DNA from: Candidatus Nomurabacteria bacterium
GTDB taxonomy: Bacteria > Patescibacteriota > Minisyncoccia > Phycocordibacterales > UBA918
NCBI GenBank assembly: GCA_020632015.1
Contig: JACKGI010000003.1
Location: 1,421-65,420 of the forward strand
Length of the DNA stretch: 64,000 nt
Reading direction: 5' to 3'
A model generated the notes under the pieces. The model was not told where the DNA came from, did not search any database, and was given only the letters and a program-made list of their open reading frames with translations. The translations under genes were made by a program, and so were the position numbers. How positions within the stretch are numbered: position 1 is the first letter of the stretch; every line of letters begins with the position of its first letter. This document shows positions 289 to 59,562 of the stretch, one piece after another.

Positions 289-1095
289 ATGGAGGAACCA
301 GAGATAAATCCTGTCGAATATTCAAAATGGGCTTTTAAAATAATGGTCGGTTTTGTCGGGGTAATTTGCTTAATGGTTTTTACACCTTTGAGTGGCCACT
401 TGAGTAATCTTTTCGCTAATACGCCTGTTCCTAACACTACTTTGATTGCTACGCTACAGTCGTTTCAGTGTGGGCAAAGTACAGTACAAGACGCCGACGC
501 CAACACATACAACACCATCGCTATCGGTACTCAGTGCTGGATGGCCTCCAACCTCAACGTCGGTACCCGCATCAACATTGCCTCCAACCAAACCGACAAC
601 GCCGTCATCGAAAAGTGGTGCTACTCCGACACCGACGCCAACTGTGACACCACCAACAACCCCAACCAACCCGACGGAGGTCTCTATCAATGGGATGAAG
701 CTATGCAATACAGCACTACCGAAGGCGCGCAGGGTATTTGTCCTACCGGCTGGCATATCCCTACCCACGATGAATACACCACCATGGAGAGAGCTATCTG
801 TACCTCAGGAAGCTGTGCCACTGACTTCCCGTACGACACTACCACCACTGGCTACCGCGGCACCAACGAAGGTACCAAACTAAAACCCAACGGCTCCACC
901 GGCCTAGAATTCAACCTGGCCGGCCTCGGCAACTCTGGTTCCTTCTTCAATCGCGGTTCGTTCGGCTACTTCTGGTCATCTTCGGAGTCTGGCACCAAGG
1001 CTTGGTACCGGCTCGTGTCCTCTGGTTCAGCGCAGGTCTCCCGGCGCACGAACGTCCAGTCGTTCGGTTTTTCTGTGCGTTGCGTAGAGGACTAG
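289..1095 (+). CDS. DGR target protein: N-terminal membrane anchor plus Fibrobacter-succinogenes-major-paralogous/DUF1566-like (C-type-lectin-fold) domain with C-terminal variable region
   Basis: Hydrophobic segment FKIMVGFVGVICLMVFTPL. Motifs GTQCWMASNLN, YQW, CPTGWHIPT, FWSS and GFSVRCV. The last ~58 codons are the VR. Confidence 0.85.
   Translation: MEEPEINPVEYSKWAFKIMVGFVGVICLMVFTPLSGHLSNLFANTPVPNTTLIATLQSFQCGQSTVQDADANTYNTIAIGTQCWMASNLNVGTRINIASNQTDNAVIEKWCYSDTDANCDTTNNPNQPDGGLYQWDEAMQYSTTEGAQGICPTGWHIPTHDEYTTMERAICTSGSCATDFPYDTTTTGYRGTNEGTKLKPNGSTGLEFNLAGLGNSGSFFNRGSFGYFWSSSESGTKAWYRLVSSGSAQVSRRTNVQSFGFSVRCVED
917..1091 (+). repeat. DGR variable repeat (VR)
   Basis: Same length as the TR. 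Differs from it almost only where the TR has A (AAC codons in the TR become CTC, TTC, TAC, TCC, CGC etc.). Confidence 0.85.
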
Positions 1096-6866: not shown

Positions 6867-8315
6867 ATGAAAGTTTCAGGTTTTACTTCATCAATCCAGA
6901 TTGTTTTTGTGGCAGTCACACTTTTTCTACTGGCTTTGCCAGTAGTTTCTAATGCCCAGTCTACAAATGAATGTTCATTTGGTCAGACTCTAGATATTGG
7001 AGTTGTAGATGAGAGCGTAAGGTGTCTACAAGTATATCTAAATAATAACGGGTTCGTTTTGGCGACAGAAGGTCCAGGGTCGCCAGGGAATGAGACAAAC
7101 AAATTTGGTAGCTTAACAAAAGCTGCGGTTATTAAGTGGCAAGAAGACAAGGGAGTAAGTCCTACTAGTGGTGTGTTTGGACCAAAGTCACAAGCTGCCT
7201 ACCTACTTAGTTTAGTTGCTAGTCTGGAGTCTCAAAAACCAGTAGCTATCCTCCCTAATCCTACTCCGCAACCGATTGTTGCTGGAGCTTCTACAGATGC
7301 AGACAGCGAAGCTCAAGAGGGTGCAGAAAGAATCCTAGGTGCAACTATGGAGATGATCTTGGATACTTTTGATGAACTAGAAGACTTACGTGATGATGAT
7401 CCAGAAGAAGCTGAAGACATAGACGAAGATGTTCGTGATGTAATTGAGTCTCTATTTGATGCTTTACGAGCTTACTTTAGTGGTGACTACAAAAATGCAG
7501 AGGCAGATGCTGATGAAGTGTTAGATGATGCAACTAATGCTTTTGAGGACGCTGGTGGAGAATCAGAAGCTAGCGAAGCTGAAGACATCATTGAAGATGT
7601 CGAGGATTTGCTTGAGGATGTACAAGATATGTTCGAAGAGGCTGAAGACAAGGGAGATGATGTTGGTGACGCAGAAGATATGATTGAAGAAGCTGAGGAT
7701 CTTCTCGATGACGCCCGAGAAGCTTTTGAAAATCGAATTTATCGACAAGCTATCAGCGACGCACTTGATGCAGAAGAATTGCTTGAAGACGCTGAGGATG
7801 AAATCGATATTGTTACTCAAAAAGATGCTGAAGAAGCAGTTGACGATGCAATCGATGCATTTGAAGAAGCAGAGGATGAAGTTGACGAAGCAGAAGAGGA
7901 TGGTGACGAGGTAGAAGATTCGCAAGACCTTCTAGACGACGCAGAACGAGAAATCAAGAAAGCGGAAATTGCTCTAGACGATGAGGATTGGCAAGAAGCA
8001 ATGGAGCGCGCAAAGAAGGCCGAAGATTTGATTGAAGATGCTCTGGATGATATCGGTTCATCTTCAGATGATGATGAGGATGAGGCGGAAGAAGCACTTG
8101 AGGATGCATGGGATGAGTATAGAGACGCAAAAGATGAAATCGAAGAAGCGGACGATGATGGCGACGATATTGGTGATGCTGAGGATTATCTAGATGAAGC
8201 CAAAGACTTATTAAATGATGCGGAAGATGCCCTAGATGATGAAGACTGGGATGAAGTAATGGATTTGGTTGATGATGCACTAGATGCGATTGATGACGCA
8301 CTAGATGAACTCTAG
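6867..8315 (+). CDS. Secreted protein: signal peptide, peptidoglycan-binding (PG_binding_1-like) domain, ~350-aa hyper-acidic D/E helical repeat region
   Basis: Signal peptide ending VSNA/QS. PG-binding-like segment VRCLQVYLNNNGF...LTKAAVIKWQEDKG. Long Asp/Glu repeats (AEDLLDDAE, DEDWQEAMERAKKAEDLIEDALDD). Confidence 0.75.
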   Translation: MKVSGFTSSIQIVFVAVTLFLLALPVVSNAQSTNECSFGQTLDIGVVDESVRCLQVYLNNNGFVLATEGPGSPGNETNKFGSLTKAAVIKWQEDKGVSPTSGVFGPKSQAAYLLSLVASLESQKPVAILPNPTPQPIVAGASTDADSEAQEGAERILGATMEMILDTFDELEDLRDDDPEEAEDIDEDVRDVIESLFDALRAYFSGDYKNAEADADEVLDDATNAFEDAGGESEASEAEDIIEDVEDLLEDVQDMFEEAEDKGDDVGDAEDMIEEAEDLLDDAREAFENRIYRQAISDALDAEELLEDAEDEIDIVTQKDAEEAVDDAIDAFEEAEDEVDEAEEDGDEVEDSQDLLDDAEREIKKAEIALDDEDWQEAMERAKKAEDLIEDALDDIGSSSDDDEDEAEEALEDAWDEYRDAKDEIEEADDDGDDIGDAEDYLDEAKDLLNDAEDALDDEDWDEVMDLVDDALDAIDDALDEL

Positions 8316-37567: not shown

Positions 37568-38053
37568 ATGAGAAGAGAGTATTATTTAGATATGAAAAAA
37601 GAAACAGAAGCAAGAAGACCAAAAATTTTGATAATAGAAGACAACGATGCAAATCACTCACTTTTTCGTCAGTCTTTTGAAAATTTCGGTTTTGAAGTCG
37701 TAATTAGCGATACTGCTGAAGACGACTTCGTTGAGGCTGTTTGTGCACTTAAGCCAGATGTTATCTCTATGGATATTATGATTGGTAAAGCAAATATAGA
37801 AGTAGCAAGAGATGGACTGCAAGCACTGGAGTTACTAAAGAGCGATGACCGAACAAAAGACATTCCGGTTATCATGCTCACAAATTTCCATACCGAGGAC
37901 AAGGTCGAAAAGGCAAAGTCACTAGGAGCAGTAGATTACATAAATCTTCAGAGCCGCGTGATTACTCAAGTTCCAGAAATATATTTAAATTATTTGGCAA
38001 ATCCAGAGGTGTACATTCCAGTTCATCCTGCTTTTCAGGCGAAAGTTAAGTAA
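37568..38053 (+). CDS. Single-domain response regulator (receiver)
   Basis: KILIIEDND...DVISMDIMIG...VIMLTN. The start could instead be the ATG at 37592. Confidence 0.8.
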   Translation: MRREYYLDMKKETEARRPKILIIEDNDANHSLFRQSFENFGFEVVISDTAEDDFVEAVCALKPDVISMDIMIGKANIEVARDGLQALELLKSDDRTKDIPVIMLTNFHTEDKVEKAKSLGAVDYINLQSRVITQVPEIYLNYLANPEVYIPVHPAFQAKVK

Positions 38054-38076
38054 ATTAAAATTAAATCTATACGTAA

Positions 38077-38106
38077 CAAGGGGTCACTGTATAGTGACCC
38101 CTTTGT
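38077..38106. terminator. Bidirectional terminator
   Basis: caaggggtcact-gtat-agtgacccctttg. Confidence 0.7.
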
Positions 38107-38107
38107 G

Positions 38108-38539
38108 TTAATTGGAGGGAGGAACTTCTGGTTTTAATAGATGGACAGAACAAAGATCAATATCGTCACTCAGGATGACGTAGTTGTATTTTCCGTTTGT
38201 TGGTTGCGCTTGAATTCTACTCGCCAAGTCTTGATGTTTGTTTGTAAGGTACTGAAGAATACCCATTGGTACCAGATAAATAAAGTTACCAGCAAAGAAT
38301 ATCGCACTCTTCACATCTTCAATATCCATTTGTTCTACCAAAGTGCAAAACAAACTGTGCCATACTTTTGAACGACAAGGCATGTGCAAAAGAATCGCTT
38401 CTTGGTTGCTGAGTGATAGACTCTGGGAGACATACCACAAATATTGATTCATATTTATGGCTCCGTTTCTTAGATAAATTGTTCTTCCTTCTGCCCTCTG
38501 TCTCTCGCCTTGAACTAGCTGTTCATTCAGTTTATCCAT
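38108..38539 (-). CDS. Hypothetical protein (143 aa)
   Basis: ORF with AGAGGA about 7 nt upstream of the ATG. No family recognised. Confidence 0.5.
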   Translation of the reverse strand: MDKLNEQLVQGERQRAEGRTIYLRNGAINMNQYLWYVSQSLSLSNQEAILLHMPCRSKVWHSLFCTLVEQMDIEDVKSAIFFAGNFIYLVPMGILQYLTNKHQDLASRIQAQPTNGKYNYVILSDDIDLCSVHLLKPEVPPSN

Positions 38540-38644
38540 GGTGACGTCCTCTTGTTGTATTGAACCATCTAGTTAAAAGTTAGTACGGATAGCTTGATTT
38601 GTAAACACCCGCTCGCAGAGCGAACGGGTGTTTGAAAAAATATA

Positions 38645-38967
38645 TGTGGTCTTATCATAACGCTTGCTCGAACTACTTGGTCGCGAAGCGACTAACGCTG
38701 GCCGCGCGGAGCGCGTGGTGATGCGGTACTTCCGCGTACGCATTCGCGTTCGTGGTGATGCCTCACGCTCCTTACAGTAGCGGTACACCCTTTGGCTATA
38801 TTCTCCTTGCGTCAAATCTAGCGCAAAAGGTCTTGCGAAAGTCTCCCAGACTTTCTCACCTCCCACCGCCTCCGCTACCCGCTCCGGCGGTACGCTCTCC
38901 AGAACCTCCTTTGCAGTATTCCTTTTTCTTTTGGGCCCGGGAATAGTTTTTGAATATGGAAAAGGAG
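38645..38967 (-). repeat. 323-bp GC-rich repeat, left copy (X); perfect inverted copy at 44173-44495
   Basis: My base-by-base comparison found no mismatch between the copies. Identical spurious ORF translations appear in both copies. Confidence 0.95.
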
Positions 38968-39213
38968 TTCTGTCGGGCGCACTTCCACTATGTCGTGGAA
39001 GTAGGGAGGTGCTCCCGAATTCGGTGCCTCGTGACTTGTTTCCTCGCTAGTGGTTGTCCAGGCTAAAGGTGTGGCACCCTCGGCATCCGCCTCGGGCTAT
39101 TTACGTTAGTGCTTGCCCCACGCCCTCGCGCTGACGCGCTCGGGCTCCCGCCAGTGCATTCATTGGGTTTCACTACAGTATTAATATCGAGTTCCTAGAT
39201 TAAATATTACTTC
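38645..39213 (-). ncRNA. Candidate large structured noncoding RNA (~570 nt) directly downstream of the 977-aa gene; class unknown
   Basis: Visibly GC-rich compared with its flanks. 38968-39213 has no ORF of 60 aa or more in any frame. Many local hairpins (gaaagtc-tggga-gactttc, ttccac-gacata-gtggaa, accgcc...ggcggt, gtcgc-ttc-gcgac). A hairpin at about 38600-38632 follows on the minus strand. Confidence 0.3.
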
Positions 39214-42147
39214 TTAATAATTATTTGGAAGATTGTATGGTTTAATATCTTTTATATCAATAAATCCATTATCTATTCTTTCATCAGTTTTGTTGCGCTG
39301 CCAAGACATGTTTGATTCAAAAACTAGTTTCAAGTCCTCGGGTGTAATGTTTTTCTTTATAAAGTTTTCTATCTCGGGGTCGCTCATGTCCGATGGGTTA
39401 AATGACTCAATATTTTCCAACATACCAATTTCCATCAACACCTTAGTATCAGTTGCTAGTCTACTCAAAGTAGTATTATCTTGCTCTAGCCCTTCGACCC
39501 TAAGTAGAACCGGATTGCTGTCTGCGTATGTAGACCAGTACTTTTCAAAAGTACTAATTATTTCATCACCATCTTCTTCAGACACGTTTTTGTATCCAGC
39601 TTTTAAATATTCCTCTTTACGATTAGTGATTGACTGAACTTTTCTGAGCACATTTCTTTTCGCTTTTTCGTAATCTCTTTCTGAAAAAGCACCGTCTGTC
39701 ATAACATTTAACCACTCAGGGCTACCTTTAGCATAATTAACAGCACCGCCTGAACTCTCACAGCTACCCGTTAAGAACAGCTTATTTGATGAATTAATGT
39801 CATACCAGCCGATAAATTCATTTTTAGGAACATTATTTCGTTCCAGTATGTCCGACAATCTATCAAGATCTGCTTCAAATCCTCGCTCACTACTTTTTGC
39901 CCTGCCACTTTCTAGTATTTCTCTTAAAGCCACACTGTTGGTGCCGTGATACATAACGCCCATTTGTTTATCGTACAGTGACAGACAAACATCTAGGGCA
40001 CTTTCAATGTTTGAATCAAAATCAACAGAAAGATTTTTACTTTCTAGATTAATCATGGAATCAAAAAGTAATTTTCTCTCTTCATTAAAAATTTTGTGAT
40101 CTGGCAATGAAGCTAATTCATTGAAATCTACGCCACGTAACTCGTCCATCATTAGGGTCAAACTATCTAAGGAATCGTCACATTGCATAAGTAATGAAGA
40201 TGCGAAACCCAGTAATATTTCACGCGCTTTTTTATCTTCATAAGATTCAAAAAACGCATTAAATTTTTCTCCTTGTAGAAAAGAAGAGACTTTCATTTGT
40301 TCAAAATTACTATCTTTTTTCATAAGACTGCTTTTGGTCTTTGAATTTTTAACACTTCTTCTTTCTCTCCATTTGTCAAAGTTTCCATCCATATATGCCC
40401 ACAAAGCAGTTTTATCAGTTAGTGTTTCCTTTGGAAAACCAACCAGCTCGAGTGCGCCAGGATACTGCTGTTCGTATACTTGATTTATTTTAAAAATATC
40501 ATTTTGATTCCGGACTCTAATCCAAGGCAAAACTTCACTTTCGATTTTTAGTAAAGACCTCTCGCCATTCTTGGTCTCTATTGTTTCTATTGAGCCTACT
40601 ATAAAACCACGATCGATTTTATCCTGCCAATCTGCCACCTCTTCGCTGTCAGCAGTAGTTTTTTCGTAAGGGTACTCTGTTCTGAAAATTTCTGCGGGCA
40701 TTTTTTCTAACCCACTGGCTTTTATACCAGCAACACGATGTGTCCCGTCAAAAACCGAATAAATTGGACCTGCTGGACCTTCATAACTAGCTAATTTAAT
40801 CCTCTCATTTGTTCCATCTTCCGTGTGAAAAATTCTCTCAATCCCAGTTTCATCTTCTGGATTGTTCACTTGCTGTACTATTTCGCTGATTCGTCCACCA
40901 CGCTCGTCATACTCATGTGCCCATCCATTTTCATAATTATCAGCGTTTGGTCTACCGACAATTTTATCTGTTTCTACAAATTCAAAAATGCTTTGTTCTG
41001 CACGAGAGGGTTCAACATCATAGAGGGTTTTAGTGTCTATAATTGGTTCACCCTTTAATCTTTCGTAATCTGGCTCCTTATTGATTTTTCCTTCGCCCAT
41101 CTGCTCTCGGATCGTTTTTATCGTTTCCACTTTCGTTATTTCTGTTGGAGATTCGATACCACCCTCTGTTTCTACTATTGGTTTCGATTTAGCTGTTCCT
41201 ACTTCAGCAGGTGTCATTCGATCGTAGTAGGCACTTTTTTGAGGAAACCTGTCTCTAAATAATTTTTCTGCAGTTTCTGAAGGATCATATTTTATATTTC
41301 TTTTAAATTCACGATCGTCATCGCTGCTATACGTATCAGCCTCCTTCAAACAGGCGGCATAATCAGGATCCTCCTTTAGCGACTTAGGGAGCTCCTCTTC
41401 AGAAACTCCCGCAGCTACAACCGCATCAATTTCTGATTGAACAGATTCACGATTTTGGGCTAAGACATCAATCCCTTCTTTTTCTTTCATCAGAGTTTCG
41501 TAACGATCTGATACACCACTCATTTCCACTAATACGTCACGTCTGTGTAACTTAAGACGATCTGAATCGGGGTCGCCAGACTCGATAGATGTGTTCAGAT
41601 CGTCTAACTCAGCTTGAAGTTTTTCTGTAGCTCGATGATTACGTTCTATACGCTCATTGAAATCTGCTTCTTGCTTATCAAACGATGAAAGCTGGTTGCG
41701 TAATTCTGCAGTCCGCTGGTCTATTACTTGGTCAGCAACGAATCCTTTGACAACCTCGTCTTCTTGTTCGGGTGATTCAGCACCAGAGTTGATGAGATCA
41801 ATATCAAGTCGACTACTGGATATACTATGTTCAGCTCTACTAATCCTGTTTTGAATTTCTGGTAAATGAAACTCGAAGTGAGAAGGCTCGGTTGTATTGT
41901 TATTTCTCCACCTTTCCAGATCTGCTAAGGCGGTATCTCGACCAATTTCGGTTAAACGGATTCCTTCTTCAAGAGCCTCGACCCGTTCCTGAGGCGTGTC
42001 CTCAATAGGGTAGCTTTCTACTTCTACGCTTTCTGGAGCACTAAGAGATTCATCTGGTTGCTCGGACATCTCAGACTCCCCACTTGTTTCAGTGGGAGGT
42101 GTTGCGGAAGGATTCTCAAAACTCTCTTTCATACTCATATGATACAC
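39214..42147 (-). CDS. Large (977 aa) multidomain protein: acidic coiled-coil N-terminus, central ParB/sulfiredoxin-like motif, C-terminal region with a possible ADP-ribosyltransferase/Tpt1-like motif
   Basis: ParB-type signature SVFDGTHRVAGIKASGLEKMPAEI (aa ~464-487). C-terminal MYHGTNSVALREILESG (aa ~732-748) resembles the HG[ST]...IL..G start of PARP/Tpt1-type folds. GTG start at 42147, or ATG at 42138 or 42132. Confidence 0.6.
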   Translation of the reverse strand: MYHMSMKESFENPSATPPTETSGESEMSEQPDESLSAPESVEVESYPIEDTPQERVEALEEGIRLTEIGRDTALADLERWRNNNTTEPSHFEFHLPEIQNRISRAEHSISSSRLDIDLINSGAESPEQEDEVVKGFVADQVIDQRTAELRNQLSSFDKQEADFNERIERNHRATEKLQAELDDLNTSIESGDPDSDRLKLHRRDVLVEMSGVSDRYETLMKEKEGIDVLAQNRESVQSEIDAVVAAGVSEEELPKSLKEDPDYAACLKEADTYSSDDDREFKRNIKYDPSETAEKLFRDRFPQKSAYYDRMTPAEVGTAKSKPIVETEGGIESPTEITKVETIKTIREQMGEGKINKEPDYERLKGEPIIDTKTLYDVEPSRAEQSIFEFVETDKIVGRPNADNYENGWAHEYDERGGRISEIVQQVNNPEDETGIERIFHTEDGTNERIKLASYEGPAGPIYSVFDGTHRVAGIKASGLEKMPAEIFRTEYPYEKTTADSEEVADWQDKIDRGFIVGSIETIETKNGERSLLKIESEVLPWIRVRNQNDIFKINQVYEQQYPGALELVGFPKETLTDKTALWAYMDGNFDKWRERRSVKNSKTKSSLMKKDSNFEQMKVSSFLQGEKFNAFFESYEDKKAREILLGFASSLLMQCDDSLDSLTLMMDELRGVDFNELASLPDHKIFNEERKLLFDSMINLESKNLSVDFDSNIESALDVCLSLYDKQMGVMYHGTNSVALREILESGRAKSSERGFEADLDRLSDILERNNVPKNEFIGWYDINSSNKLFLTGSCESSGGAVNYAKGSPEWLNVMTDGAFSERDYEKAKRNVLRKVQSITNRKEEYLKAGYKNVSEEDGDEIISTFEKYWSTYADSNPVLLRVEGLEQDNTTLSRLATDTKVLMEIGMLENIESFNPSDMSDPEIENFIKKNITPEDLKLVFESNMSWQRNKTDERIDNGFIDIKDIKPYNLPNNY

Positions 42148-42179
42148 TTAATTAAACCTTTTTATAAATAAATATTTTT

Positions 42180-42512
42180 ATGCAAAATCAAGATTTTCAA
42201 GATTTTTTGTTTAAGCTGTATGACTTCACAGACCGCTTAGCAGACGAAGCTCAGTTCGACCCGTCTCAGGAGAGTGTTCGAATCCTAACGTTAATTTTCA
42301 TAGAGCAATACTTTGACAGTATTGGTCGGGGTGAAATTAGCCAAGCAGCAAGAGAAAGTGGTGCTGATGCACAGCAATCACTTTCAGAAGCTCATAAGAG
42401 AATTGATGAACTGCGAGGTCAGATAAACTCACTCGTCTCTAAAATTGAAGATATTGAACCTATGGAAAGGTACGCCAGAGAGATAGTGGCTCAGTGGCTT
42501 AAAAAGAACTAA
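42180..42512 (+). CDS. Hypothetical small helical protein (110 aa)
   Basis: ORF divergent from the 977-aa gene. Only 4 nt separate it from the next ORF. Confidence 0.55.
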   Translation: MQNQDFQDFLFKLYDFTDRLADEAQFDPSQESVRILTLIFIEQYFDSIGRGEISQAARESGADAQQSLSEAHKRIDELRGQINSLVSKIEDIEPMERYAREIVAQWLKKN

Positions 42513-42516
42513 TCAT

Positions 42517-43311
42517 ATGGCTAATGATGATAGTGATCTAGAATTTGAATTGATAAGTTTTGTCGACCTGGTTAAACATACCCTTCTAGATATGTTTGAG
42601 TTTAGTGCTCACTCATTTGAAAGCATCCAAGGTCCATATTATTGGAATGGTCTCGGAATGGACTTTATGACCTCAATGCCAACCGAGAAAGTTTTGAAAC
42701 ATGCCGAGCAAGAAGGTGCCAAAAAGGTATATCTTGCTCACACTCATCCCTTGTCGAATGATGATGTATGCAAGTTTCTAAATATAAAAGTTGATCCCCG
42801 TGAGGAAATGGCGTTTGGCTATAAAGCACTACCTTTAGGGAACAAACCTTCATCAGGTGATATCTCATTTCTCAGTCAATTTCAGAAAGACTTTGAAGAT
42901 GCTGGTATTGAAGTGTCTGGTGTAGTGTTTTCTGCCACAGGATTATGGGAATTTAGTATAGTTGACATCCTCAACTTTAACTCCGATAAGTTTGTGGGAG
43001 CGTATGACGTCGTCTTTCCGATTGAAGACAGTGAGGACTTTTTTGATGAACTTTCAGCTAGAAGCGCTTTCCCGAGCTATTTTATGGAACTGCAGAAGCC
43101 AAAAATTAGGGACAATTCATACCAAACACAGCTTGATGGGAAACGAGACATCTCTCCTGTTGATTATAATGAGAACATCGAGTCAATTGTAAAATTTTTT
43201 GGCGATAACGGTATTAGGCTTAAATTTTACCTGTATTCAGACTTTAATATCAATCCACAACAAGTCATGGCTGATACTATTGATCAGTGGTCGGGTCAGT
43301 TCACAACTTAG
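42517..43311 (+). CDS. Hypothetical protein with possible JAB/MPN (JAMM) metallopeptidase motif
   Basis: AEQEG...LAHTHP...(32 aa)...PSSGDISFL resembles E / HxH / SxxD, but the HxH-to-S spacing is unusually long. Confidence 0.4.
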   Translation: MANDDSDLEFELISFVDLVKHTLLDMFEFSAHSFESIQGPYYWNGLGMDFMTSMPTEKVLKHAEQEGAKKVYLAHTHPLSNDDVCKFLNIKVDPREEMAFGYKALPLGNKPSSGDISFLSQFQKDFEDAGIEVSGVVFSATGLWEFSIVDILNFNSDKFVGAYDVVFPIEDSEDFFDELSARSAFPSYFMELQKPKIRDNSYQTQLDGKRDISPVDYNENIESIVKFFGDNGIRLKFYLYSDFNINPQQVMADTIDQWSGQFTT

Positions 43312-43877
43312 AAAACAAGTTCCACAATTTTATCAGCTGTCACATAGACAATGTTAGTATTGTTGTATTTCTGCACCAGACTGTCTTTTGTTGGGTATGT
43401 ATGACCGTGAAAAAAGTATTTTGGCTGCTTCTGGTCCAAATAATTTCGTAAGGCAATTAAGCCTGTGTGGGCAGGGTCATCTTCATCATTGATACCTGCA
43501 GGTGGTGAATGTGCAATAAACACATCAACATATGGAAAGTCTTTCATAAGCTCAACAGCTTCTTCTTGTGTGTACATTTTTGCAAATTGATCATTCTTGT
43601 ACTTGTGTGATCCATCAAAACCACCGAAGGTTATACCGCCAACTTCTATTGTATTCAAGTGCATATCTGCGATACCTAATTGCTCCATATAGCCTGGTGT
43701 GCAGTGATTACCATAAACACCAATCTTTGGAATGTTCGTAATTAATTCAAGTTCCGCGATCTGGGTATATTCAAGGTCACCAAGTGTAATAACTAAATCA
43801 ATATTCTCATCCAGAACTTGATCTTTAATCGAACTTTTAGGTGGGCGATCTGCTATTACTAGTACTTTTAGATCCAT
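43308..43877 (-). CDS. Calcineurin-like metallophosphoesterase (YfcE/MJ0936-like)
   Basis: VLVIADRP, ITLGDL, VYGNHC, IAHSPP, FHGHTY. ATG at 43877, directly after the HTH stop. Confidence 0.8.
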   Translation of the reverse strand: MDLKVLVIADRPPKSSIKDQVLDENIDLVITLGDLEYTQIAELELITNIPKIGVYGNHCTPGYMEQLGIADMHLNTIEVGGITFGGFDGSHKYKNDQFAKMYTQEEAVELMKDFPYVDVFIAHSPPAGINDEDDPAHTGLIALRNYLDQKQPKYFFHGHTYPTKDSLVQKYNNTNIVYVTADKIVELVF

Positions 43878-43881
43878 GATA

Positions 43882-44103
43882 CTAATCGACGAAGTAGTCG
43901 AGTTTTCTTTTGAATAATTTTGCAATTGCTGAGAGTTCGATAACGTCAATTCGTCGTTCGCCTCGTTCGATCTTTGAAATGTATGATTGAGGTTTGCCAA
44001 GCTTCTCAGCAGCTTCAGTTTGCGTCAAACCGGCCGCTTCGCGGGCTTCGCAAAGTTTCTTGATGACTGTTTTGTATTCACTGCTGTGAATTGACTTTGG
44101 CAT
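43882..44103 (-). CDS. XRE-family helix-turn-helix transcriptional regulator
   Basis: LTQTEAAEKLGKPQSYISKIERGERRIDVIEL. Confidence 0.88.
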   Translation of the reverse strand: MPKSIHSSEYKTVIKKLCEAREAAGLTQTEAAEKLGKPQSYISKIERGERRIDVIELSAIAKLFKRKLDYFVD

Positions 44104-44116
44104 ACGACTTAAATGT

Positions 44117-44150
44117 ATAACCCATTGTAGGATAACCCAAAATAGGTTAT
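44117..44150. promoter_or_regulatory. Putative operator of the XRE regulator: three ATAACC half-sites
   Basis: ATAACCCA at 44117-44124 and 44132-44139, with inverted GGTTAT at 44145-44150, immediately upstream of the HTH gene. Confidence 0.4.
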
Positions 44151-44172
44151 TCTTTTATTATCCTCCAGAACA

Positions 44173-44495
44173 CTCCTTTTCCATATTCAAAAACTATTCC
44201 CGGGCCCAAAAGAAAAAGGAATACTGCAAAGGAGGTTCTGGAGAGCGTACCGCCGGAGCGGGTAGCGGAGGCGGTGGGAGGTGAGAAAGTCTGGGAGACT
44301 TTCGCAAGACCTTTTGCGCTAGATTTGACGCAAGGAGAATATAGCCAAAGGGTGTACCGCTACTGTAAGGAGCGTGAGGCATCACCACGAACGCGAATGC
44401 GTACGCGGAAGTACCGCATCACCACGCGCTCCGCGCGGCCAGCGTTAGTCGCTTCGCGACCAAGTAGTTCGAGCAAGCGTTATGATAAGACCACA
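44173..44495 (+). repeat. 323-bp GC-rich repeat, right copy (X'), inverted relative to 38645-38967
   Basis: No mismatch found by eye. The 3' end (gataagaccaca) abuts the 139-bp repeat Y. Confidence 0.95.
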
Positions 44496-44629
44496 AATTG
44501 AAACATTACTCATTCCACGACCCCTATCCGCAAAGCGGATAGGGGTTTGTGTGTGCATGAAATCGGTTTTTGTATTGTACGCAAAGACCAATTCCGAGAG
44601 GACGGGCACGCCGAAGCGCGCGGATTTGT
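44491..44629 (+). repeat. 139-bp inverted repeat, left copy (Y)
   Basis: Its reverse complement matches 46047-46185 with no mismatch by my comparison. Contains the hairpin cccctatccg-caaa-gcggatagggg followed by TTTGTGTG. Confidence 0.95.
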
Positions 44630-44656
44630 TCTTGTTTTAAGTATCTTCAATGCATT

Positions 44657-46201
44657 ATGTCCAAACCAAAATATTTTCTATATGCTCGCAAGAGCACCGA
44701 GGATGATGACAAGCAGGTGATGAGTATCGAAGCTCAGTTGTTTGAGCTTCGTGAGTTTGCTCGCAAAGAAAATCTTGAAATCCTAGTGGAGTTTCAAGAG
44801 TCAAAAAGCGCAAAGACACCAGGGCGACCTGTATTCAATGACATGATGCGGGCTATCGAGGAGCAAGAAGAAATCGGCATATTGGCGTGGCATCCGGACA
44901 GACTTGCTCGCAACTCGATAGATGGTGGTCGCATCATTTACCTTGTCGATCAGGGGAAGTTAGTGTCTATGCGCTTTCCGACTTTTTGGTTTGAACCTAC
45001 CCCGCAGGGGCTCTTTATGTTGCAAGTGGCGTTTGGCCAGTCGAAATATTACTCGGATAATCTCCAAGAGAATATTCGTCGGGGGATGCGCCAAAAACTC
45101 CGCCGTGGAGAGTGGTTGTGTAAAGCGCCGCTCGGGTACACAAACAATCCCAAGACCAGAAATATTGAGCCAGTTGGTTTTCAAGCGCGGGTGATAAAGT
45201 TAGCATTTGAAAAATACGCGAAGGGCGGAACTGGTCTTGAGGCATTGGCGGAGTTTATGGCGCATCATGGTATGACGACTCAGGAAGGAACGCCACTTGG
45301 CAAAGCTACCGTGAAGCGAATGCTTTCGAATCGGGCATATATCGGACTTACGAAACATAAGGGCGAATGGTTTCCCGGTAGCTTTGCACCAATTATTTCC
45401 TCGAAATTATTTGAAGACGTGCAACGAGCACTCAAAGTGCGCGAGAAGCCGCGGAAGCGCAAGGTACGACATGATTTTCCTTTTGCTGGACTTTTTCAGT
45501 GTGCGGAGTGTGGCGGCATGTTTACTGCTCAGTGGGCAACAGGGAAGACAGGGCAGCGGTATAGATACTATCGTTGCACTAAGAAAAAGGGAGTCTGTAC
45601 GCAAAAGTACTTGCGTGAGGAGGAACTTCTCGCGCAGATAAAAGATCGTCTTCAAAAAATTTCGCTTTGCGATAATGTGCTTGAGGAGTTGGAGCGTCAG
45701 CTCACAGAGATTGAAAAAGCAGAACATCAATCATCGCAAAGCGACCTCCAAAATCTTTCTGAAAGTATCAAAGCGGGTGAAGCGCGCTTGAATAAGTTGG
45801 TCGAGTCGTATCTCGATGGTGATATTCCAAAGGAGCTGTATGTACAGAAGAAAGACGAGATACTCCGCGCAAACACCGCTTTGCATGAAGAAATGAAAGA
45901 TTTTAAACGTCGAGGAAATACTTGGGTCGAACCCCTGCGCGAATGGATTTCAGATACTAAACAAGCCAATTTTTTAACAAACACAGAGGATCTTCAAGAT
46001 ATTCGTGTGTTTGTTGAAAAAATTGGAACGAACCCTTCGGTTCGTGACAAATCCGCGCGCTTCGGCGTGCCCGTCCTCTCGGAATTGGTCTTTGCGTACA
46101 ATACAAAAACCGATTTCATGCACACACAAACCCCTATCCGCTTTGCGGATAGGGGTCGTGGAATGAGTAATGTTTCAATTTGTGGAGATGGGGGGAGTTG
46201 A
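44657..46201 (+). CDS. Large serine recombinase (integrase)
   Basis: N-terminal resolvase domain (KYFLYARKSTEDDDKQVMSIEAQ), recombinase domain, zinc ribbon CAECGG...YYRC, coiled coil. The last ~52 codons read through repeat Y', and the TGA stop lies inside the ssrA T-arm. Confidence 0.9.
   Translation: MSKPKYFLYARKSTEDDDKQVMSIEAQLFELREFARKENLEILVEFQESKSAKTPGRPVFNDMMRAIEEQEEIGILAWHPDRLARNSIDGGRIIYLVDQGKLVSMRFPTFWFEPTPQGLFMLQVAFGQSKYYSDNLQENIRRGMRQKLRRGEWLCKAPLGYTNNPKTRNIEPVGFQARVIKLAFEKYAKGGTGLEALAEFMAHHGMTTQEGTPLGKATVKRMLSNRAYIGLTKHKGEWFPGSFAPIISSKLFEDVQRALKVREKPRKRKVRHDFPFAGLFQCAECGGMFTAQWATGKTGQRYRYYRCTKKKGVCTQKYLREEELLAQIKDRLQKISLCDNVLEELERQLTEIEKAEHQSSQSDLQNLSESIKAGEARLNKLVESYLDGDIPKELYVQKKDEILRANTALHEEMKDFKRRGNTWVEPLREWISDTKQANFLTNTEDLQDIRVFVEKIGTNPSVRDKSARFGVPVLSELVFAYNTKTDFMHTQTPIRFADRGRGMSNVSICGDGGS
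46047..46185 (-). repeat. 139-bp inverted repeat, right copy (Y'), which is the region immediately downstream of ssrA including its terminator hairpin
   Basis: Reverse complement of 44491-44629. Shares CCA with the 3' end of ssrA. Confidence 0.95.
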
Positions 46202-46576
46202 ACCCCCGTCCGAATCAGGGTGCGAATATGAGTCTACAGTGCGTAGTACATTCTTTGGTTTAAAGTAGCTAACTAGAGAATGAACAAAACACTAACTACT
46301 CGAGTTGTTACAATCTTGAAAACCTAAGACAACGACAAAGGTTTCCACAGTCTCGTAGCTATTCTACAAGTGTCAGCGTATGAGACGTTTACTGAACTTG
46401 CATCGCATCGGCGAGCGTAAGATTACGCTACAGCGGGTGCGAATCCGAACGCGTTAGCGTAAGGACTTGGTACTGCTTTGTTTGCATGTACAAGACGGAA
46501 CCTTTTAACGAATTGATTACCAGTTTTCGACACTGCACACATCCGACACGACTAACCGTCGATGCCTAGCATCCCC
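46183..46576 (-). ncRNA. ssrA: tmRNA (SsrA)
   Basis: 5' GGGGAUGCUAGGCAUCGACGG. 3' GGACGGGGGUUCAACUCCCCCCAUCUCCA. The acceptor pairs GGGGAUG/CAUCUCC with G3-U. Predicted tag reading frame 46485-46423 gives ANKAVPSPYANAFGFAPAVA*. smpB lies nearby. Confidence 0.9.
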
Positions 46577-46623
46577 AGAGTGGTTGTGGACGGGAATTTT
46601 TTCGGAGAAAAATTCCCGTCTTA

Positions 46624-46652
46624 ATCATAAGCACTCTGGGAATGGTGTACAA
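46624..46652 (-). promoter_or_regulatory. Putative ssrA promoter (TTGTAC-N17-TATGAT)
   Basis: On the minus strand: -35 at 46652-46647 and -10 at 46629-46624. A leader hairpin gacgggaattttt...aaaaattcccgtc precedes the mature 5' end. Confidence 0.45.
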
Positions 46653-46696
46653 AATATTTAGTTACAGAAAGGTGGTGGGGAGGTGACTCCCCTAGA

Positions 46697-46858
46697 CTAC
46701 CAGCCGGTCCACGGCTCGTCATCGACAGAGCCTTGTGACTTGTTGGCGTCTCGGACAAGACGTTCCCAGTCCTTGTCAATTATTCTGTCGTTATTCTTGA
46801 CAGACGGTTCGTCTTTTTGTTTTTTTGAAGTTTTTTCATTCTTTTGAACTTTTTCCAT
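46697..46858 (-). CDS. Hypothetical small charged protein (53 aa)
   Basis: AAGGAG lies 5 nt upstream of the ATG at 46858. No family recognised. Confidence 0.4.
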   Translation of the reverse strand: MEKVQKNEKTSKKQKDEPSVKNNDRIIDKDWERLVRDANKSQGSVDDEPWTGW

Positions 46859-46921
46859 GTGCACTCCTTGTGCCTGTGATGTGATTCGGGACAATTCCCG
46901 TACTACCTTTCTGTAACTAAA

Positions 46922-47368
46922 TTATTGAGATTTCAAGGTTCGATCGATATCGCGTTTTGTGTCGCGAGCTTTCAGAGTTTCGCGTTTATCAAACTTCTTT
47001 TTACCTCGAGCTAAGGCAAATTCAAGCTTTATTTTCCGGCCAGCATTATACAACTTAATTGGTACTGCTGTCAAACCAGCTTTCTCAGTTTGTTGCTCTA
47101 TATGAGCAAGTTCTTTTTTAGATAAGAGTAGTTTACGAGTTCTTTCAGGGTCATAATTCTTAGGAGTATTGGCTGGTTGATAGGGTGAAATACTGGTCCC
47201 TACCAAGAACGCCTCTCCACCTCGAATAATAACGTGAGCCCCTTCCAGCTTGCCTTTGCCTGCTCTGATTGATTTGGCCTCAAAACCTTGTAGCACCAAA
47301 CCCGCTTCGAATGTCTCGAGGATTTCAAAGTTGAAGTGAGCTTTACGATTTTGTATATACGCTTTCAT
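46922..47368 (-). CDS. smpB: SsrA-binding protein SmpB
   Basis: IQNRKAHFNFEILETFEAGLVLQGFEAKSIR...GRKIKLEFALARGKK. Confidence 0.95.
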   Translation of the reverse strand: MKAYIQNRKAHFNFEILETFEAGLVLQGFEAKSIRAGKGKLEGAHVIIRGGEAFLVGTSISPYQPANTPKNYDPERTRKLLLSKKELAHIEQQTEKAGLTAVPIKLYNAGRKIKLEFALARGKKKFDKRETLKARDTKRDIDRTLKSQ

Positions 47369-53981: not shown

Positions 53982-54138
53982 GATGGATTAATTATAGCAG
54001 AATGCTAGACGTTTCTTTGCGAAGTTTTAGGTTCTAGGTGCCGGCGCTCTATTTAGTAGTGAGGTGATATGAAAGTTACTCTCTGAGTCTCCGTACACAG
54101 TTCAAGAAATATTTGCTTACAAACTGAGTTTAATTTTG

Positions 54139-54168
54139 TCCATCCACTAGGACTCGAACCTAGGACTA
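54139..54168 (-). pseudogene. 3' fragment of a tRNA (variable loop, T-arm, acceptor 3' strand UGGAUGG, discriminator A)
   Basis: uaguc-CUAGG-UUCGAGU-CCUAG-UGGAUGG-A. The acceptor strand is perfectly complementary to the 5' fragment at 54353-54390. Confidence 0.6.
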
Positions 54169-54197
54169 TTAGCTATATGGAAATGAAGTTTCCTGTG

Positions 54198-54270
54198 TCC
54201 GCCCGCCAGGACTCGAACCTGGGACCACGAAGGTATAAGCTTCGCGCTCTACCAACTGAGCTACAGGCGG
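54198..54270 (-). tRNA. tRNA-Ile(UAU)
   Basis: Manual cloverleaf: acceptor CCGCCUG/CGGGCGG, D arm GCUC-AGUUGGUA-GAGC, anticodon arm CGAAG-CUUAUAC-CUUCG, variable UGGUC, T arm CCAGG-UUCGAGU-CCUGG. CCA is not encoded. Confidence 0.8.
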
Positions 54271-59186: not shown

Positions 59187-59247
59187 TTGCCTTCTCATCT
59201 TTTATGCTATTCTAGCCAGCACAGAAGTGACCAAATAGAATAATACG

Positions 59248-59265
59248 GGAGAGTTGGCTGAGTGG
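59248..59265 (+). repeat. Duplicated 5' end (18 nt) of tRNA-Ser, 137 nt upstream of the intact gene
   Basis: ggagagttggctgagtgg is identical to 59385-59402. Followed by a perfect 13-bp hairpin gatgaaaagtgaa/ttcacttttcatc. Confidence 0.85.
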
Positions 59266-59384
59266 ATGAAAAGTGAAATTGATTCACTTTTCATCTGGTC
59301 CGCGAACAAGTGAGCGGAATTGCCGATATTTATGAGGCAATAGGTGGACGAAATTTTCGACCACTACCTTAATTAAATAATTAC

Positions 59385-59472
59385 GGAGAGTTGGCTGAGT
59401 GGTCGAAAGCGCTTCACTGCTAACGAAGTAAGCCTGATAAAGGCTTCAAGGGTTCGAATCCCTTACTCTCCG
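59385..59472 (+). tRNA. tRNA-Ser(GCU)
   Basis: Class II tRNA: acceptor GGAGAGU/ACUCUCC, anticodon loop CUGCUAA, long variable arm AAGCCUGAUAAAGGCUUC, T arm AAGGG-UUCGAAU-CCCUU, discriminator G. Confidence 0.88.
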
Positions 59473-59562
59473 CATCATCGAGCTAGCACGAGGAACTATC
59501 GTTTTAGCTCAAAGAAGCACCCGCTTGGGTGCTTCTTTGTTATAGCGTATTATTGACATTCT

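What the first reader, a model, noticed from the sequence alone, without database searches (positions are those of the whole stretch)
44491..46185. Large serine recombinase gene bracketed by perfect 139-bp inverted repeats that duplicate the ssrA downstream/terminator region
- **Identity.** 44491-44629 is the exact reverse complement of 46047-46185 by my base-by-base comparison.
- **What the right copy is.** It is the sequence immediately downstream of ssrA on the minus strand, including the hairpin cccctatccg-caaa-gcggatagggg+TTTG that looks like the tmRNA terminator.
- **What the left copy does.** It follows the 3' end of repeat X' on the plus strand in the same way.
- **Shared junction.** Both junctions share CCACA: tmRNA ...CAUCUCCACA|AAUUG and X' ...GAUAAGACCACA|AAUUG. 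The other X copy continues ...GACCACA|UAUAUU.
- **Three junction types.** Read as half-sites P/P' (element) and B/B' (bacterial), the window holds an X-type site (P|P'), an ssrA-type site (B|B') and a hybrid (P|B'). No reciprocal hybrid is present.
- **Effect on the ORF.** The recombinase ORF reads about 52 codons into the right repeat and stops antisense inside the tmRNA T-arm.
- **Possible explanations.**
  - An invertible recombinase cassette.
  - A foldback-type element with very long terminal inverted repeats that inserted between two convergent RNA genes and supplies both with terminators.
  - A recent template-switch duplication.
  - An assembly or MDA artefact.
Basis: seen in the sequence. 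Interest (0 to 1): 0.8.

Follow-up and report, generated by a model that had tools for sequence, protein, structure and literature searches.

The report
tRNA-targeting serine-integrase element with duplicated attP
The perfect inverted repeat around the recombinase gene is real and marks a mobile element inserted at the end of the tmRNA gene; this element family is widespread in Patescibacteria, recognises tRNA-type genes, and always keeps a second, inverted copy of its own attachment site, for reasons still unknown.

Summary
The 139-nt perfect inverted repeat (44491-44629 / 46047-46185) is confirmed. It recurs in independent assemblies of the same species.

It is not a one-off. Of 80 homologous recombinase loci from Patescibacteria genomes, 74 have the same repeat. 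In 59 of them a tRNA or tmRNA gene lies on the opposite strand; in 56 its 3' end overlaps the outer end of the right arm by 3-8 nt.

A second repeat, X (38645-38968 / 44172-44495), abuts Y at a shared CCACA. About 20 loci have an equivalent pair.

I read 38645-46185 as one integrated large-serine-recombinase element:
- attL is tmRNA|Y'.
- attR is X|left flank.
- X'|Y is an intact attP kept inside the element in inverted orientation.

The X end carries a GTTCG motif that mimics the tRNA T-loop. It sits 6 bp further from the junction than the T-loop does (41 of 43 loci), close to the 5-bp attP/attB offset described for serine integrases.

The two arms evolve in concert: identical within a locus, 5-20% different between loci.

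The element is 92-97% identical between two hosts that are only about 70% identical, so it moves horizontally.

Artefact and recent-duplication readings are rejected. Why the element keeps the inverted attP copy is unresolved.

The parts
38603..38633 (.). Hairpin in the host flank just outside the element. It belongs to the presumed native sequence downstream of tmRNA (the B' side of attB).
   Evidence: Sequence. In contig L092 the tmRNA of a related strain is followed directly by CCACA-TATATTTTTTCAAACACCCG, which is this flank.
38645..38968 (-). Distal X arm. Its outer end (38645-38649, TGTGG on the + strand) is the attR junction X|host flank.
   Evidence: 324-nt perfect inverted repeat with 44172-44495. 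Junction table.
38969..39213 (.). GC-rich non-coding block of the element next to the distal X.
   Evidence: Partly conserved at 92-93% in L003, where the host is only about 70% identical. No Rfam match.
39214..42147 (-). Cargo gene, 977 aa, function unknown. It contains a ParB-like DGTHR motif that I saw by eye.
   Evidence: ORF list. No hit in Pfam, NCBIfam or PADLOC.
42180..43311 (+). Two cargo genes (110 aa and 264 aa), function unknown.
43308..44000 (-). Cargo gene: calcineurin-like metallophosphoesterase.
   Evidence: Pfam Metallophos, E=1.9e-5. Weak PADLOC PDC-S10 hit.
43882..44103 (-). Small XRE-family HTH regulator, transcribed divergently from X'-Y-recombinase. It is a conserved core gene of the element family.
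   Evidence: Pfam HTH_3, E=4e-18. Homologues sit at the same position and strand in at least 12 other loci.
44129..44153 (.). Operator-like palindrome AGGATAACC-N7-GGTTATTCT between the HTH gene and X'.
   Evidence: flagged there as a stem-loop. Calling it an operator is my inference.
44172..44495 (+). Internal X' arm, the P arm of the internal attP. It includes the T-loop-like motif GTTCG at 44467-44471, 20 nt before the junction.
44491..44629 (+). Left Y arm, the P' arm of the internal attP. CCACA core at 44491-44495. Hairpin ACCCCTATCCGC-AAA-GCGGATAGGGGT followed by TTTG at 44520-44550. The inner 45 nt are the reverse complement of recombinase codons 464-478.
44657..46201 (+). Large serine recombinase gene (514 aa). 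The last 51-52 codons lie in Y'. The stop codon is antisense to the tmRNA T-loop.
   Evidence: Pfam Resolvase, Recombinase and Zn_ribbon_recom. Matches the SPbeta integrase structure 9dxh at E=3e-19. 6781 homologues at E<1e-20.
46047..46185 (-). Right Y' arm, the P' half of attL. On the minus strand it follows tmRNA and supplies the hairpin at 46130-46156. The inner boundary falls at codon 464, as in most homologous loci.
46182..46576 (-). tmRNA (ssrA) gene, the integration target (B arm of attB/attL). T-loop GUUCA lies at 46199-46203 (antisense), 14 nt before the repeat.

Best explanation
**What it is.** Window 38645-46185 (7.5 kb) is one integrated mobile element of a large Patescibacteria family. 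It is built around a large serine recombinase (LSR) and a small XRE-type regulator.

**How it inserted.** The LSR joined an element site, attP (= X-end|Y-start), to a host site, attB (= the 3' end of tmRNA|its native downstream sequence). The crossover lay inside the shared CCACA.

**What that left behind.**
- attL is tmRNA|Y' (at 46185).
- attR is X|host flank (at 38645).
- The native downstream region of tmRNA now lies 7.5 kb away, and Y supplies a new hairpin behind tmRNA.

**How the target is recognised.** Recognition rests on the T-loop/acceptor end common to tRNAs and tmRNA. The X end carries a T-loop mimic, (G)GTTCG(C/A)GCAAAGG, placed 6 bp further from the crossover than the real T-loop. 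This resembles the attP/attB offset described for serine integrases.

**The unusual feature.** The element holds a second complete copy of the attP region (X'|Y, 458 bp) in inverted orientation between the regulator gene and the recombinase gene. The circular form would therefore carry two inverted attP-bearing repeats, with the same geometry as the yeast 2-micron plasmid. Integration through one copy splits it into the terminal X and Y'.

**How the copies stay identical.** The arms are kept identical by ongoing gene conversion. Conversion may be started by recombinase cuts at the core, because identity is strictest near the core.

**Shown versus inferred.**
- Shown: the architecture, its conservation across the family, target adjacency, the motif offset, concerted evolution and horizontal transfer.
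- Inferred: the circular intermediate, the crossover position, the conversion mechanism and the purpose of the second attP. Candidate purposes are a self-regulatory binding site, an alternative integration site, or a site for inversion.
For: **Family-wide architecture.**
- 74 of 80 homologous loci have the Y-type repeat around the LSR gene. 63 are at least 100 nt long and 30 are perfect.
- In 59 loci a tRNA or tmRNA lies on the opposite strand. The types are Ser, Glu, Arg, Ala, Leu, Gly, Lys and tmRNA. In 56 loci its 3' end overlaps the right arm by 3-8 nt.
- The set includes complete chromosomes CP060229.1 and OY970382.1.

**Second repeat.** In about 20 of some 33 loci with enough upstream sequence, an X-type repeat (150-270 nt, mostly 98-100% identical) abuts Y, overlapping it by 3-13 nt.

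**Three junctions per locus.** T|y, x|y and x|flank share a 3-9 nt core. The flank after the distal x differs between hosts and is often a hairpin followed by a T-run (L048, L052, L061, L069).

**Motif offset.** GTTC(G/A) lies 20 nt from the junction in the x arm and 14 nt in the tRNA arm. The difference is 6 in 41 of 43 loci. Published work places the zinc-ribbon-domain motif 5 bp closer to the centre in attB than in attP (PMC3783163).

**The protein.** It is a full LSR with a coiled-coil region.

**Horizontal transfer.** Window and L003 share x, y and LSR at 92-97% identity, while the host genes SmpB and FtsH are about 70% identical. Both copies sit at tmRNA, with unrelated distal flanks and different cargo.

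**Low diversity inside the element.** Only 2 SNPs separate window and L001 across 38520-46843, against 0.5-0.7% in the flanks.

**Concerted evolution.**
- Arms are 100% identical within the window, L003, L043, L051, L031, L040, L045 and L052. Between loci they differ by 5-19 positions, and each difference is present in both arms.
- The inner boundary of the repeat is conserved at codon 464 or about 472.
- In nearly identical arms, 21 of 27 mismatches lie in the inner 30%.

**Empty-site evidence.** Contig L092, from a related strain, reads tmRNA...CCACA|TATATTTTTTCAAACACCCG. This matches the predicted empty attB for 25 nt.

**Conserved regulator.** A small XRE gene sits at a fixed position next to the internal x.
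Against: - **No clean empty site.** No full-length empty attB was recovered. Two metagenome scans found nothing. L092 turns back at the flank hairpin into X after 25 nt, which is unexplained and possibly chimeric.
- **No circular form.** A circle cannot be told apart from the internal X'|Y junction.
- **Orientation is not random.** If both attP copies were used equally, the LSR gene should face away from the tRNA in about half the loci. It does so in only three contigs (L010, L070, L097), all ending before the far arm.
- **No excision factor.** No recombination directionality factor was identified.
- **Offset differs from the model system.** It is 6 bp here and 5 bp in that system. The Y-side arm shows no matching motif.
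- **Some arms have diverged.** Several loci with apparently intact LSR genes have arms only 77-90% identical (L026, L006, L082). Homogenisation is therefore not universal.
- **Missing distal X.** About a third of loci with 7 kb of upstream sequence show no distal X.
Confidence: 0.78

Rival explanations
1. Self-inverting switch. The recombinase flips its own gene between the two Y arms, and the cargo between the two X arms. The purpose would be to change what is transcribed across tmRNA, X or the flanks, as in Hin/Gin/Cin-type invertible segments.
For: - The geometry fits: two segments, each bounded by perfect inverted repeats that meet at a recombination core.
- The cargo segment has the opposite orientation in L001 and L101 compared with the window.
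- The recombinase segment is flipped in L097, L010 and L070.
Against: - The orientation of both segments is nearly fixed across the family. The LSR converges on the tRNA in all but two family loci. The XRE gene sits next to the internal X in at least 12 loci, and L003 agrees with the window.
- Every flipped contig ends before reaching the far arm, or crosses a repeat longer than k. These could be wrong turns in the assembly graph.
- The protein is an integrase-type LSR, not a small invertase.
- Inversion would leave every junction sequence unchanged for 139-324 nt, so its effect on the flanks would be small.
- Inversion alone does not explain horizontal transfer or the tRNA-end junctions.
Confidence: 0.12
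2. Two separate repeat-bounded modules. Y-LSR-Y' would be an autonomous 1.7-kb unit that moves by double-site (cassette-exchange-like) recombination between two converging T-loop-type ends (a tRNA and X). X-cargo-X' would be a second, non-autonomous unit.
For: - Many LSR loci show no distal X within 7 kb.
- L029 has Y-LSR-Y' flanked on the right by an arm of another repeat, not a tRNA.
- L010 and L070 have a tRNA on the left of Y.
- L092 has tmRNA and X converging on a 51-nt palindrome where Y-LSR-Y' sits in the window.
- Many database contigs are only 1.6-2 kb, about the length of the LSR gene.
Against: - The last 40 nt or so of X and the XRE gene accompany the LSR even where no distal X is seen. 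X therefore belongs with the LSR.
- Short contigs are expected from assembly breaks at repeats.
- No locus was seen with Y-LSR-Y' between two intact tRNA genes.
- The Y and X arms decay together in old copies (L026: 77% and 80%).
Confidence: 0.1
3. One-off rearrangement, either a recent template-switch inverted duplication or an assembly/MDA chimera.
For: - Both repeats are 100% identical.
- The junction shows 5-nt microhomology.
Against: - The same architecture occurs in independent assemblies of the species.
- It also occurs in 74 of 80 homologous loci from many assemblers, including complete chromosomes.
- The inner boundary is conserved.
- The arms co-vary between loci.
Confidence: 0.01

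Closest known systems
Large serine integrases of temperate phages and integrative elements (phiC31, Bxb1, A118/LI, SPbeta)
   Same: - Same domain set: catalytic, recombinase and zinc-ribbon domains with a coiled-coil.
- Hybrid attL/attR sites share a short core.
- The recognition motif sits further from the centre in attP than in attB (6 bp here; 5 bp in PMC3783163).
   Different: - The target is the extreme 3' end of tRNA and tmRNA genes of many types, read through a T-loop mimic.
- The element is tiny (3-9 kb) and has no phage genes. No relative was found in IMG/VR.
- It keeps a second, inverted, concertedly evolving attP copy, so the integrase gene is bracketed by long inverted repeats.
- No directionality factor was recognised.
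Yeast 2-micron plasmid (FLP/FRT) and other circles with two inverted repeats that carry the recombination site
   Same: - Two unique segments are separated by a pair of long, identical inverted repeats, each holding the recombinase target.
- The recombinase gene lies in one unique segment.
   Different: - FLP is a tyrosine recombinase.
- The 2-micron plasmid replicates and does not integrate.
- No replication genes were recognised among this element's genes.
- No circle or flipping has been shown here. Both segments have a nearly fixed orientation in the integrated state.
Tycheposons and classical tRNA/tmRNA-linked genomic islands (Islander-type)
   Same: Small cargo-carrying integrative elements sitting at the 3' side of tRNA or tmRNA genes, with variable cargo (bioRxiv 10.1101/2020.12.28.424599; PMC4383910 abstract).
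   Different: - Those elements mostly use tyrosine integrases: 910 of 937 tycheposons and related cryptic elements in that study.
- According to the Islander abstract, such islands carry sequence that restores the split target gene, and the displaced fragment marks the far end of the island.
- Here only 3-9 nt are shared, the repeats are inverted, and the integrase is a serine enzyme.
Invertible segments with long inverted repeats next to a serine invertase (for example the phage P1 C segment with Cin; from my own knowledge)
   Same: A serine recombinase, with long inverted repeats whose ends carry the crossover sites.
   Different: - The invertases are small enzymes with a C-terminal HTH, and their gene lies outside the segment.
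- The function there is switching of tail-fibre genes.
- Here the gene is inside the repeat pair, and the orientation is essentially fixed.

Membership tests
Large serine recombinase (integrase-type) | N-terminal resolvase catalytic domain plus recombinase domain plus zinc-ribbon domain | tested here: met
   Pfam PF00239 (5e-24), PF07508 (2e-13) and PF13408 (2e-12), all above their cut-offs. Matches the SPbeta integrase chains 9dxh/9dxd at E=3e-19 over residues 9-421.
Large serine recombinase (integrase-type) | Coiled-coil insertion in the zinc-ribbon domain, which controls directionality | tested here: inconclusive
   Residues about 340-420 are heptad-like. They give a weak coiled-coil family hit (PF23203, residues 321-409) and align with SPbeta integrase through residue 421. 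No structure was predicted.
LSR-mediated integrated element (attL/attR around the element) | Two hybrid junctions in direct orientation sharing a short core, with element sequence inside and host sequence outside | tested here: met
   tmRNA|Y' and X|flank share CCACA, and both lie on the minus strand. The same holds in 19 other loci. Y and X are conserved across hosts, while the outer flanks are not.
LSR-mediated integrated element (attL/attR around the element) | The attP and attB half-sites carry the same recognition motif, displaced by about half a helical turn | tested here: met
   GTTC(G/A) lies 20 nt from the junction in X arms and 14 nt in tRNA arms. The difference is 6 in 41 of 43 loci. 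Published value: 5 bp. This was shown for the left arms only.
LSR-mediated integrated element (attL/attR around the element) | An unoccupied attB exists in relatives | tested here: inconclusive
   L092 shows tmRNA-CCACA joined to the predicted flank for 25 nt, then folds back at a hairpin. Two metagenome scans gave 0 hits.
LSR-mediated integrated element (attL/attR around the element) | Mobility: the same element occurs in unrelated host backgrounds | tested here: met
   Window versus L003: the element is 92-97% identical and the host genes about 70%.
LSR-mediated integrated element (attL/attR around the element) | A recombination directionality factor for excision | not testable with these tools
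   These factors have no common signature. The only conserved partner gene found is a 65-73-aa XRE regulator.
Serine DNA invertase switch (Hin/Gin/Cin type) | A small recombinase with a C-terminal HTH, encoded beside the invertible segment | tested here: not met
   The protein is 514 aa with LSR architecture, and its gene lies inside the repeat pair.
Serine DNA invertase switch (Hin/Gin/Cin type) | Both orientations of the segment coexist in populations | tested here: inconclusive
   The cargo is flipped in L001 and L101. The LSR segment is flipped in L097, L010 and L070. All are compatible with assembly ambiguity, and the family-wide orientation is nearly fixed.
Insertion sequence or transposon with terminal inverted repeats | Direct target-site duplication flanking the inverted ends, and a DDE-type or other transposase | tested here: not met
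   The shared CCACA is itself inverted and forms part of the arms. There is no direct duplication. The only enzyme is an LSR.
Classical tRNA/tmRNA genomic island (tyrosine integrase) | A tyrosine integrase and a direct repeat of the 3' part of the tRNA gene at the far end | tested here: not met
   There is no tyrosine recombinase among the element's ORFs. Only 5 nt are shared with tmRNA at the far end.
Known structured RNA family (for repeat X) | A match to an Rfam model, or a conserved covarying fold | tested here: not met
   No Rfam match at E<10 in 38000-47000 apart from tmRNA. RNAalifold on 16 X sequences finds one 4-bp hairpin and no compensatory pairs.

The most novel reading that the evidence does not exclude
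A previously undescribed class of serine-integrase elements, abundant across Patescibacteria. The attachment site would mimic a tRNA T-loop/acceptor end, so that any tRNA or tmRNA gene can serve as a target. The obligatory second, inverted attP would make the element a 2-micron-like two-repeat circle. Recombinase cuts at the cores would drive gene conversion that keeps the repeats identical. The spare attP would allow reactions ordinary integrases cannot do without a helper protein, such as exchange or inversion between tRNA loci or capture of new cargo.
Probability: 0.3. Interest if true: 0.85.

Novelty: new variant of a known kind. Interest (0 to 1): 0.68.

Why it matters
**Reach.** The recombinase search returned 6781 homologues at E<1e-20, and the best 120 are all at least 60% identical. 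The element is therefore probably a major, so far undescribed route of gene exchange in Patescibacteria. My five literature searches found no description of it.

**Effect on assemblies.** Roughly 30 of the 80 contigs end within about 300 nt upstream of the recombinase gene, in or near the left arm. The element thus explains a recurrent source of breaks in metagenome assemblies of these genomes.

**Mechanism and engineering.** It offers a natural case of a serine integrase whose target is defined by a universal RNA-gene feature, with many natural attB variants. This is relevant to integrase engineering.

**An open question made testable.** The conserved, co-evolving inverted copy of attP inside an integrated element is not part of the textbook serine-integrase cycle. 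The question is what an integrase does with an intact attP left in the chromosome.

Tried and rejected
**Searches that found nothing.**
- Rfam at gathering and at E<10 gave no family for X or Y.
- RNAalifold on X found no conserved fold beyond a 4-bp hairpin. I therefore dropped the idea that X is an RNA gene such as RNase P or a tmRNA-like RNA.
- Two metagenome scans for the empty site gave 0 hits.
- IMG/VR holds no relative of the recombinase, so a prophage reading is dropped.
- Sigma-70 promoter and terminator scans were no better than shuffles.
- PADLOC and NCBIfam leave the cargo function unknown.

**Look-ups that did not help.**
- Exact-protein look-ups of the flanking genes returned contigs that mostly break inside X or Y. 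Only L092 reaches the host flank.

**Ideas rejected.**
- X as a coding region: the alignment is full of indels.
- Simple random use of both attP copies: rejected as the full story because of the orientation bias.
- The end of Logan contig L109 at 38632 first looked like independent support for the L092 junction. It is equally explained by foldback chimeras at the flank hairpin.

**Literature.** Five searches found no description of this family.
Full report
**1. Observation**

The repeat is exactly as described. Arms 44491-44629 and 46047-46185 are 139 nt long and 100% complementary, with 1417 nt between them.

The tmRNA gene lies on the minus strand at 46182-46576 (ARAGORN; Rfam 105 bits). It ends ...CAUCUCCACAA, so the right arm begins inside the last five bases of the gene.

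The only long ORF between the arms runs from ATG 44657 to the stop at 46199-46201. It encodes a 514-aa large serine recombinase (LSR) with Resolvase, Recombinase and Zn_ribbon_recom domains. It aligns with the SPbeta integrase structure at E=3e-19. The last 51-52 codons lie in the right arm, and the stop codon is the antisense of the tmRNA T-loop.

Its right arm overlaps the left Y arm by exactly CCACA.

**2. Not an artefact and not a one-off**

An exact-protein look-up found two other assemblies of the same species with both Y arms at 100% (L001 and L002). L002 is a k=141 contig that reads from the recombinase gene through the whole right arm into tmRNA.

The recombinase has 6781 homologues at E<1e-20, and the best 120 are at least 60% identical. 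All named ones come from Patescibacteria. Many sit on contigs of only 1.6-2 kb.

In the protein alignment, conservation runs to ...KIGTNPxVRDKSARFG. After that a variable tail usually ends in 'CDPTGNRTP'-like residues, which is a tRNA T-arm read backwards. Some predicted N-terminal extensions are the reverse-complement translation of DKSARFG. Both features predicted that the repeat is a family trait.

Eighty loci fetched from species-representative genomes confirmed this:
- 74 have an inverted repeat around the gene. 63 are at least 100 nt long, 30 are perfect and 47 are at least 97% identical.
- Five of the six without a repeat are cut by a contig end.
- In 59 loci a tRNA (Ser 21, Glu 20, Arg 5, Ala 5, Leu 2, Gly 2, Lys 1) or tmRNA (3) lies on the opposite strand. 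In 56 its 3' end overlaps the right arm by 3-8 nt.
- The set includes complete chromosomes (CP060229.1, OY970382.1).

**3. The second repeat and the three junctions**

In about 20 of some 33 loci with enough upstream sequence, an X-type repeat (150-270 nt, mostly 98-100% identical) ends 3-13 nt inside the left Y arm. Its partner lies 1.1-6 kb further left.

Each such locus has three junctions that share a short core (CCACA, CCGCA, TCACA or GCACA). The core corresponds to the last acceptor-stem bases, the discriminator and CA:
- tRNA|y
- x|y
- x|flank

The y start (core-AAnnGAAAC) and the x end (..GGTTCGCGCAAAGG-N14-core) are conserved whatever the tRNA. The flank after the distal x differs in every host. 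It is often a hairpin followed by a T-run (L048, L052, L061, L069).

Hence x and y are element DNA. The tRNA and the distal flank were once neighbours. The assignment is:
- attB = tRNA|flank
- attP = x|y
- attL = tRNA|y
- attR = x|flank

In the window the element spans 38645-46185.

**4. Site recognition**

GTTC(G/A) lies 20 nt from the junction in the x arm and 14 nt in the tRNA/tmRNA arm, where it is the T-loop. The difference is exactly 6 in 41 of 43 loci and 5 in the other two.

For serine integrases, the zinc-ribbon-domain motif is known to sit 5 bp nearer the centre in attB than in attP (PMC3783163). The x end therefore behaves as an attP-type arm that mimics the tRNA T-loop. This explains how one family uses at least eight kinds of tRNA-type genes. 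I found no matching motif on the y side.

**5. Mobility**

L003 carries the element at the tmRNA of another species. There x, y and the LSR are 92-97% identical to the window, while SmpB and FtsH are about 70% identical. Most of the cargo differs and the distal flank is unrelated.

Between the window and L001 there are 2 SNPs in 38520-46843, against 0.5-0.7% divergence outside.

Contig L092, from a related strain with a variant tmRNA, reads ...CATCTCCACA|TATATTTTTTCAAACACCCG. This is the predicted empty attB for 25 nt. It then turns at the flank hairpin and runs back into X. I cannot explain this. A chimera between empty-site and occupied-site DNA at the hairpin is the simplest reading. Two metagenome scans for the empty site found nothing.

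**6. The internal attP and concerted evolution**

What sets the family apart is that x|y is present intact inside the integrated element. It lies in inverted orientation between a conserved small XRE regulator gene (43882-44103 here; same place and strand in at least 12 other loci) and the recombinase gene.

The inner boundary of the Y repeat falls at codon 464 (or about 472) of the recombinase in nearly all loci. The repeat is therefore ancient.

Yet the arms are identical within loci while differing by 5-19 positions between related loci, and every difference is present in both arms:
- window/L003: 8 differences
- L043/L051: 10
- L031/L040: 5 substitutions and 2 gaps
- L045/L052: 19

This is concerted evolution, and it excludes a recent duplication.

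In arms that differ at only 1-3 positions, 21 of 27 mismatches lie in the inner 30%. Identity is thus strictest next to the core. That would fit conversion tracts starting at recombinase-made breaks, but this is inference.

Old copies show both repeats decaying together (L026: Y 77%, X 80%).

**7. Mechanism proposed**

A circular form of the element would have two unique segments, the recombinase segment and the regulator-plus-cargo segment. These would be separated by two inverted copies of a 300-460-bp repeat, each carrying attP. Integration through one copy splits it into the terminal x and y. This reproduces the two abutting inverted repeats.

Y places a hairpin followed by TTTG behind tmRNA. 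In the left copy the same hairpin sits between X' and the recombinase gene.

**8. What does not fit**

- If both attP copies were equivalent, the recombinase gene should face either way. It converges on the tRNA in all but L010 and L070 in the family, plus L097 in this species, and all three contigs stop before the far arm.
- The cargo is inverted in L001 and L101 relative to the window. The family-wide position of the XRE gene, and L003, agree with the window orientation. X (324 nt) is longer than the assembly k.
- Inversion is therefore possible but unproven, and the role of the spare attP is open.
- No relative occurs in IMG/VR.
- The cargo has no assignable function.
- X has no Rfam match and no robust fold.

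**9. Novelty**

Five literature searches found no description of this family.

The nearest concepts are:
- serine-integrase prophages (same chemistry)
- tycheposons and tRNA-linked islands (same kind of target, but mostly tyrosine enzymes; classical islands also leave direct tRNA-fragment repeats)
- the 2-micron plasmid (same repeat geometry)

I rate it a new variant of a known kind.

Noticed in passing
window 54120-54270 (minus strand): tRNA-Ile(TAT) is followed by CACA-G-GAAACTTC, the family's Y-start motif. 28 nt later comes a displaced tRNA 3' fragment (TCCTAGGTTCGAGTCCTAGTGGATGGA), itself followed by CA-AAATTAAAC. This looks like two stacked attL-like scars of the same element family, with no recombinase gene left.
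   Followed up: partly
window 59247-59271 and 59385-59473: A 5' fragment of a tRNA-Ser-like gene (GGGAGAGTTGGCTGAGTGGATGAAA) lies 137 nt upstream of the real tRNA-Ser. The upstream AT-rich box is also duplicated.
   Followed up: no
L092:5466-5575 (ERZ27309150 k141_252448): The tmRNA of a variant strain is followed by a 51-nt perfect palindrome (TATATTTTTTC-hairpin-GAAAAAATATA) and then by inverted X. The left half equals the predicted empty attB. The rest is unexplained, and could be a chimera or a real rearrangement.
   Followed up: partly
L031 (JBAXFJ010000001.1) and L029 (CAZCNN010000010.1): L031 holds three recombinase copies with nested repeats and a 191-nt direct repeat carrying a degenerate tRNA 3' fragment. 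This suggests stacked elements. In L029 the sequence right of Y' is not a tRNA but one arm of a further 235-nt inverted repeat.
   Followed up: no
window 38387-38519: Seven SNPs between the window and L001 cluster within about 130 nt of the 143-aa gene just outside the element, next to an 8.3-kb stretch with only 2 SNPs. This may mark the edge of a recombination tract.
   Followed up: no
window 44630-44637 and 45959-45966; L006:6974-6991 and 8292-8309: In many loci an extra 17-24-nt inverted match lies just inside the left arm and about 81 nt inside the right arm, within the recombinase coding region. The repeat may once have reached further into the gene, with the left copy later losing 81 nt.
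   Followed up: no
window 917-1091 and 1701-1875: A 175-nt direct repeat at 89% identity, 784 nt apart.
   Followed up: no
L098:1930-2018 (ERZ28656482): The same variant tmRNA as in L092 is followed after CCACA by an unrelated AT-rich sequence (GAATATAGAAATACATAG...). It weakly resembles a Y start and may belong to a different element at the same site.
   Followed up: no
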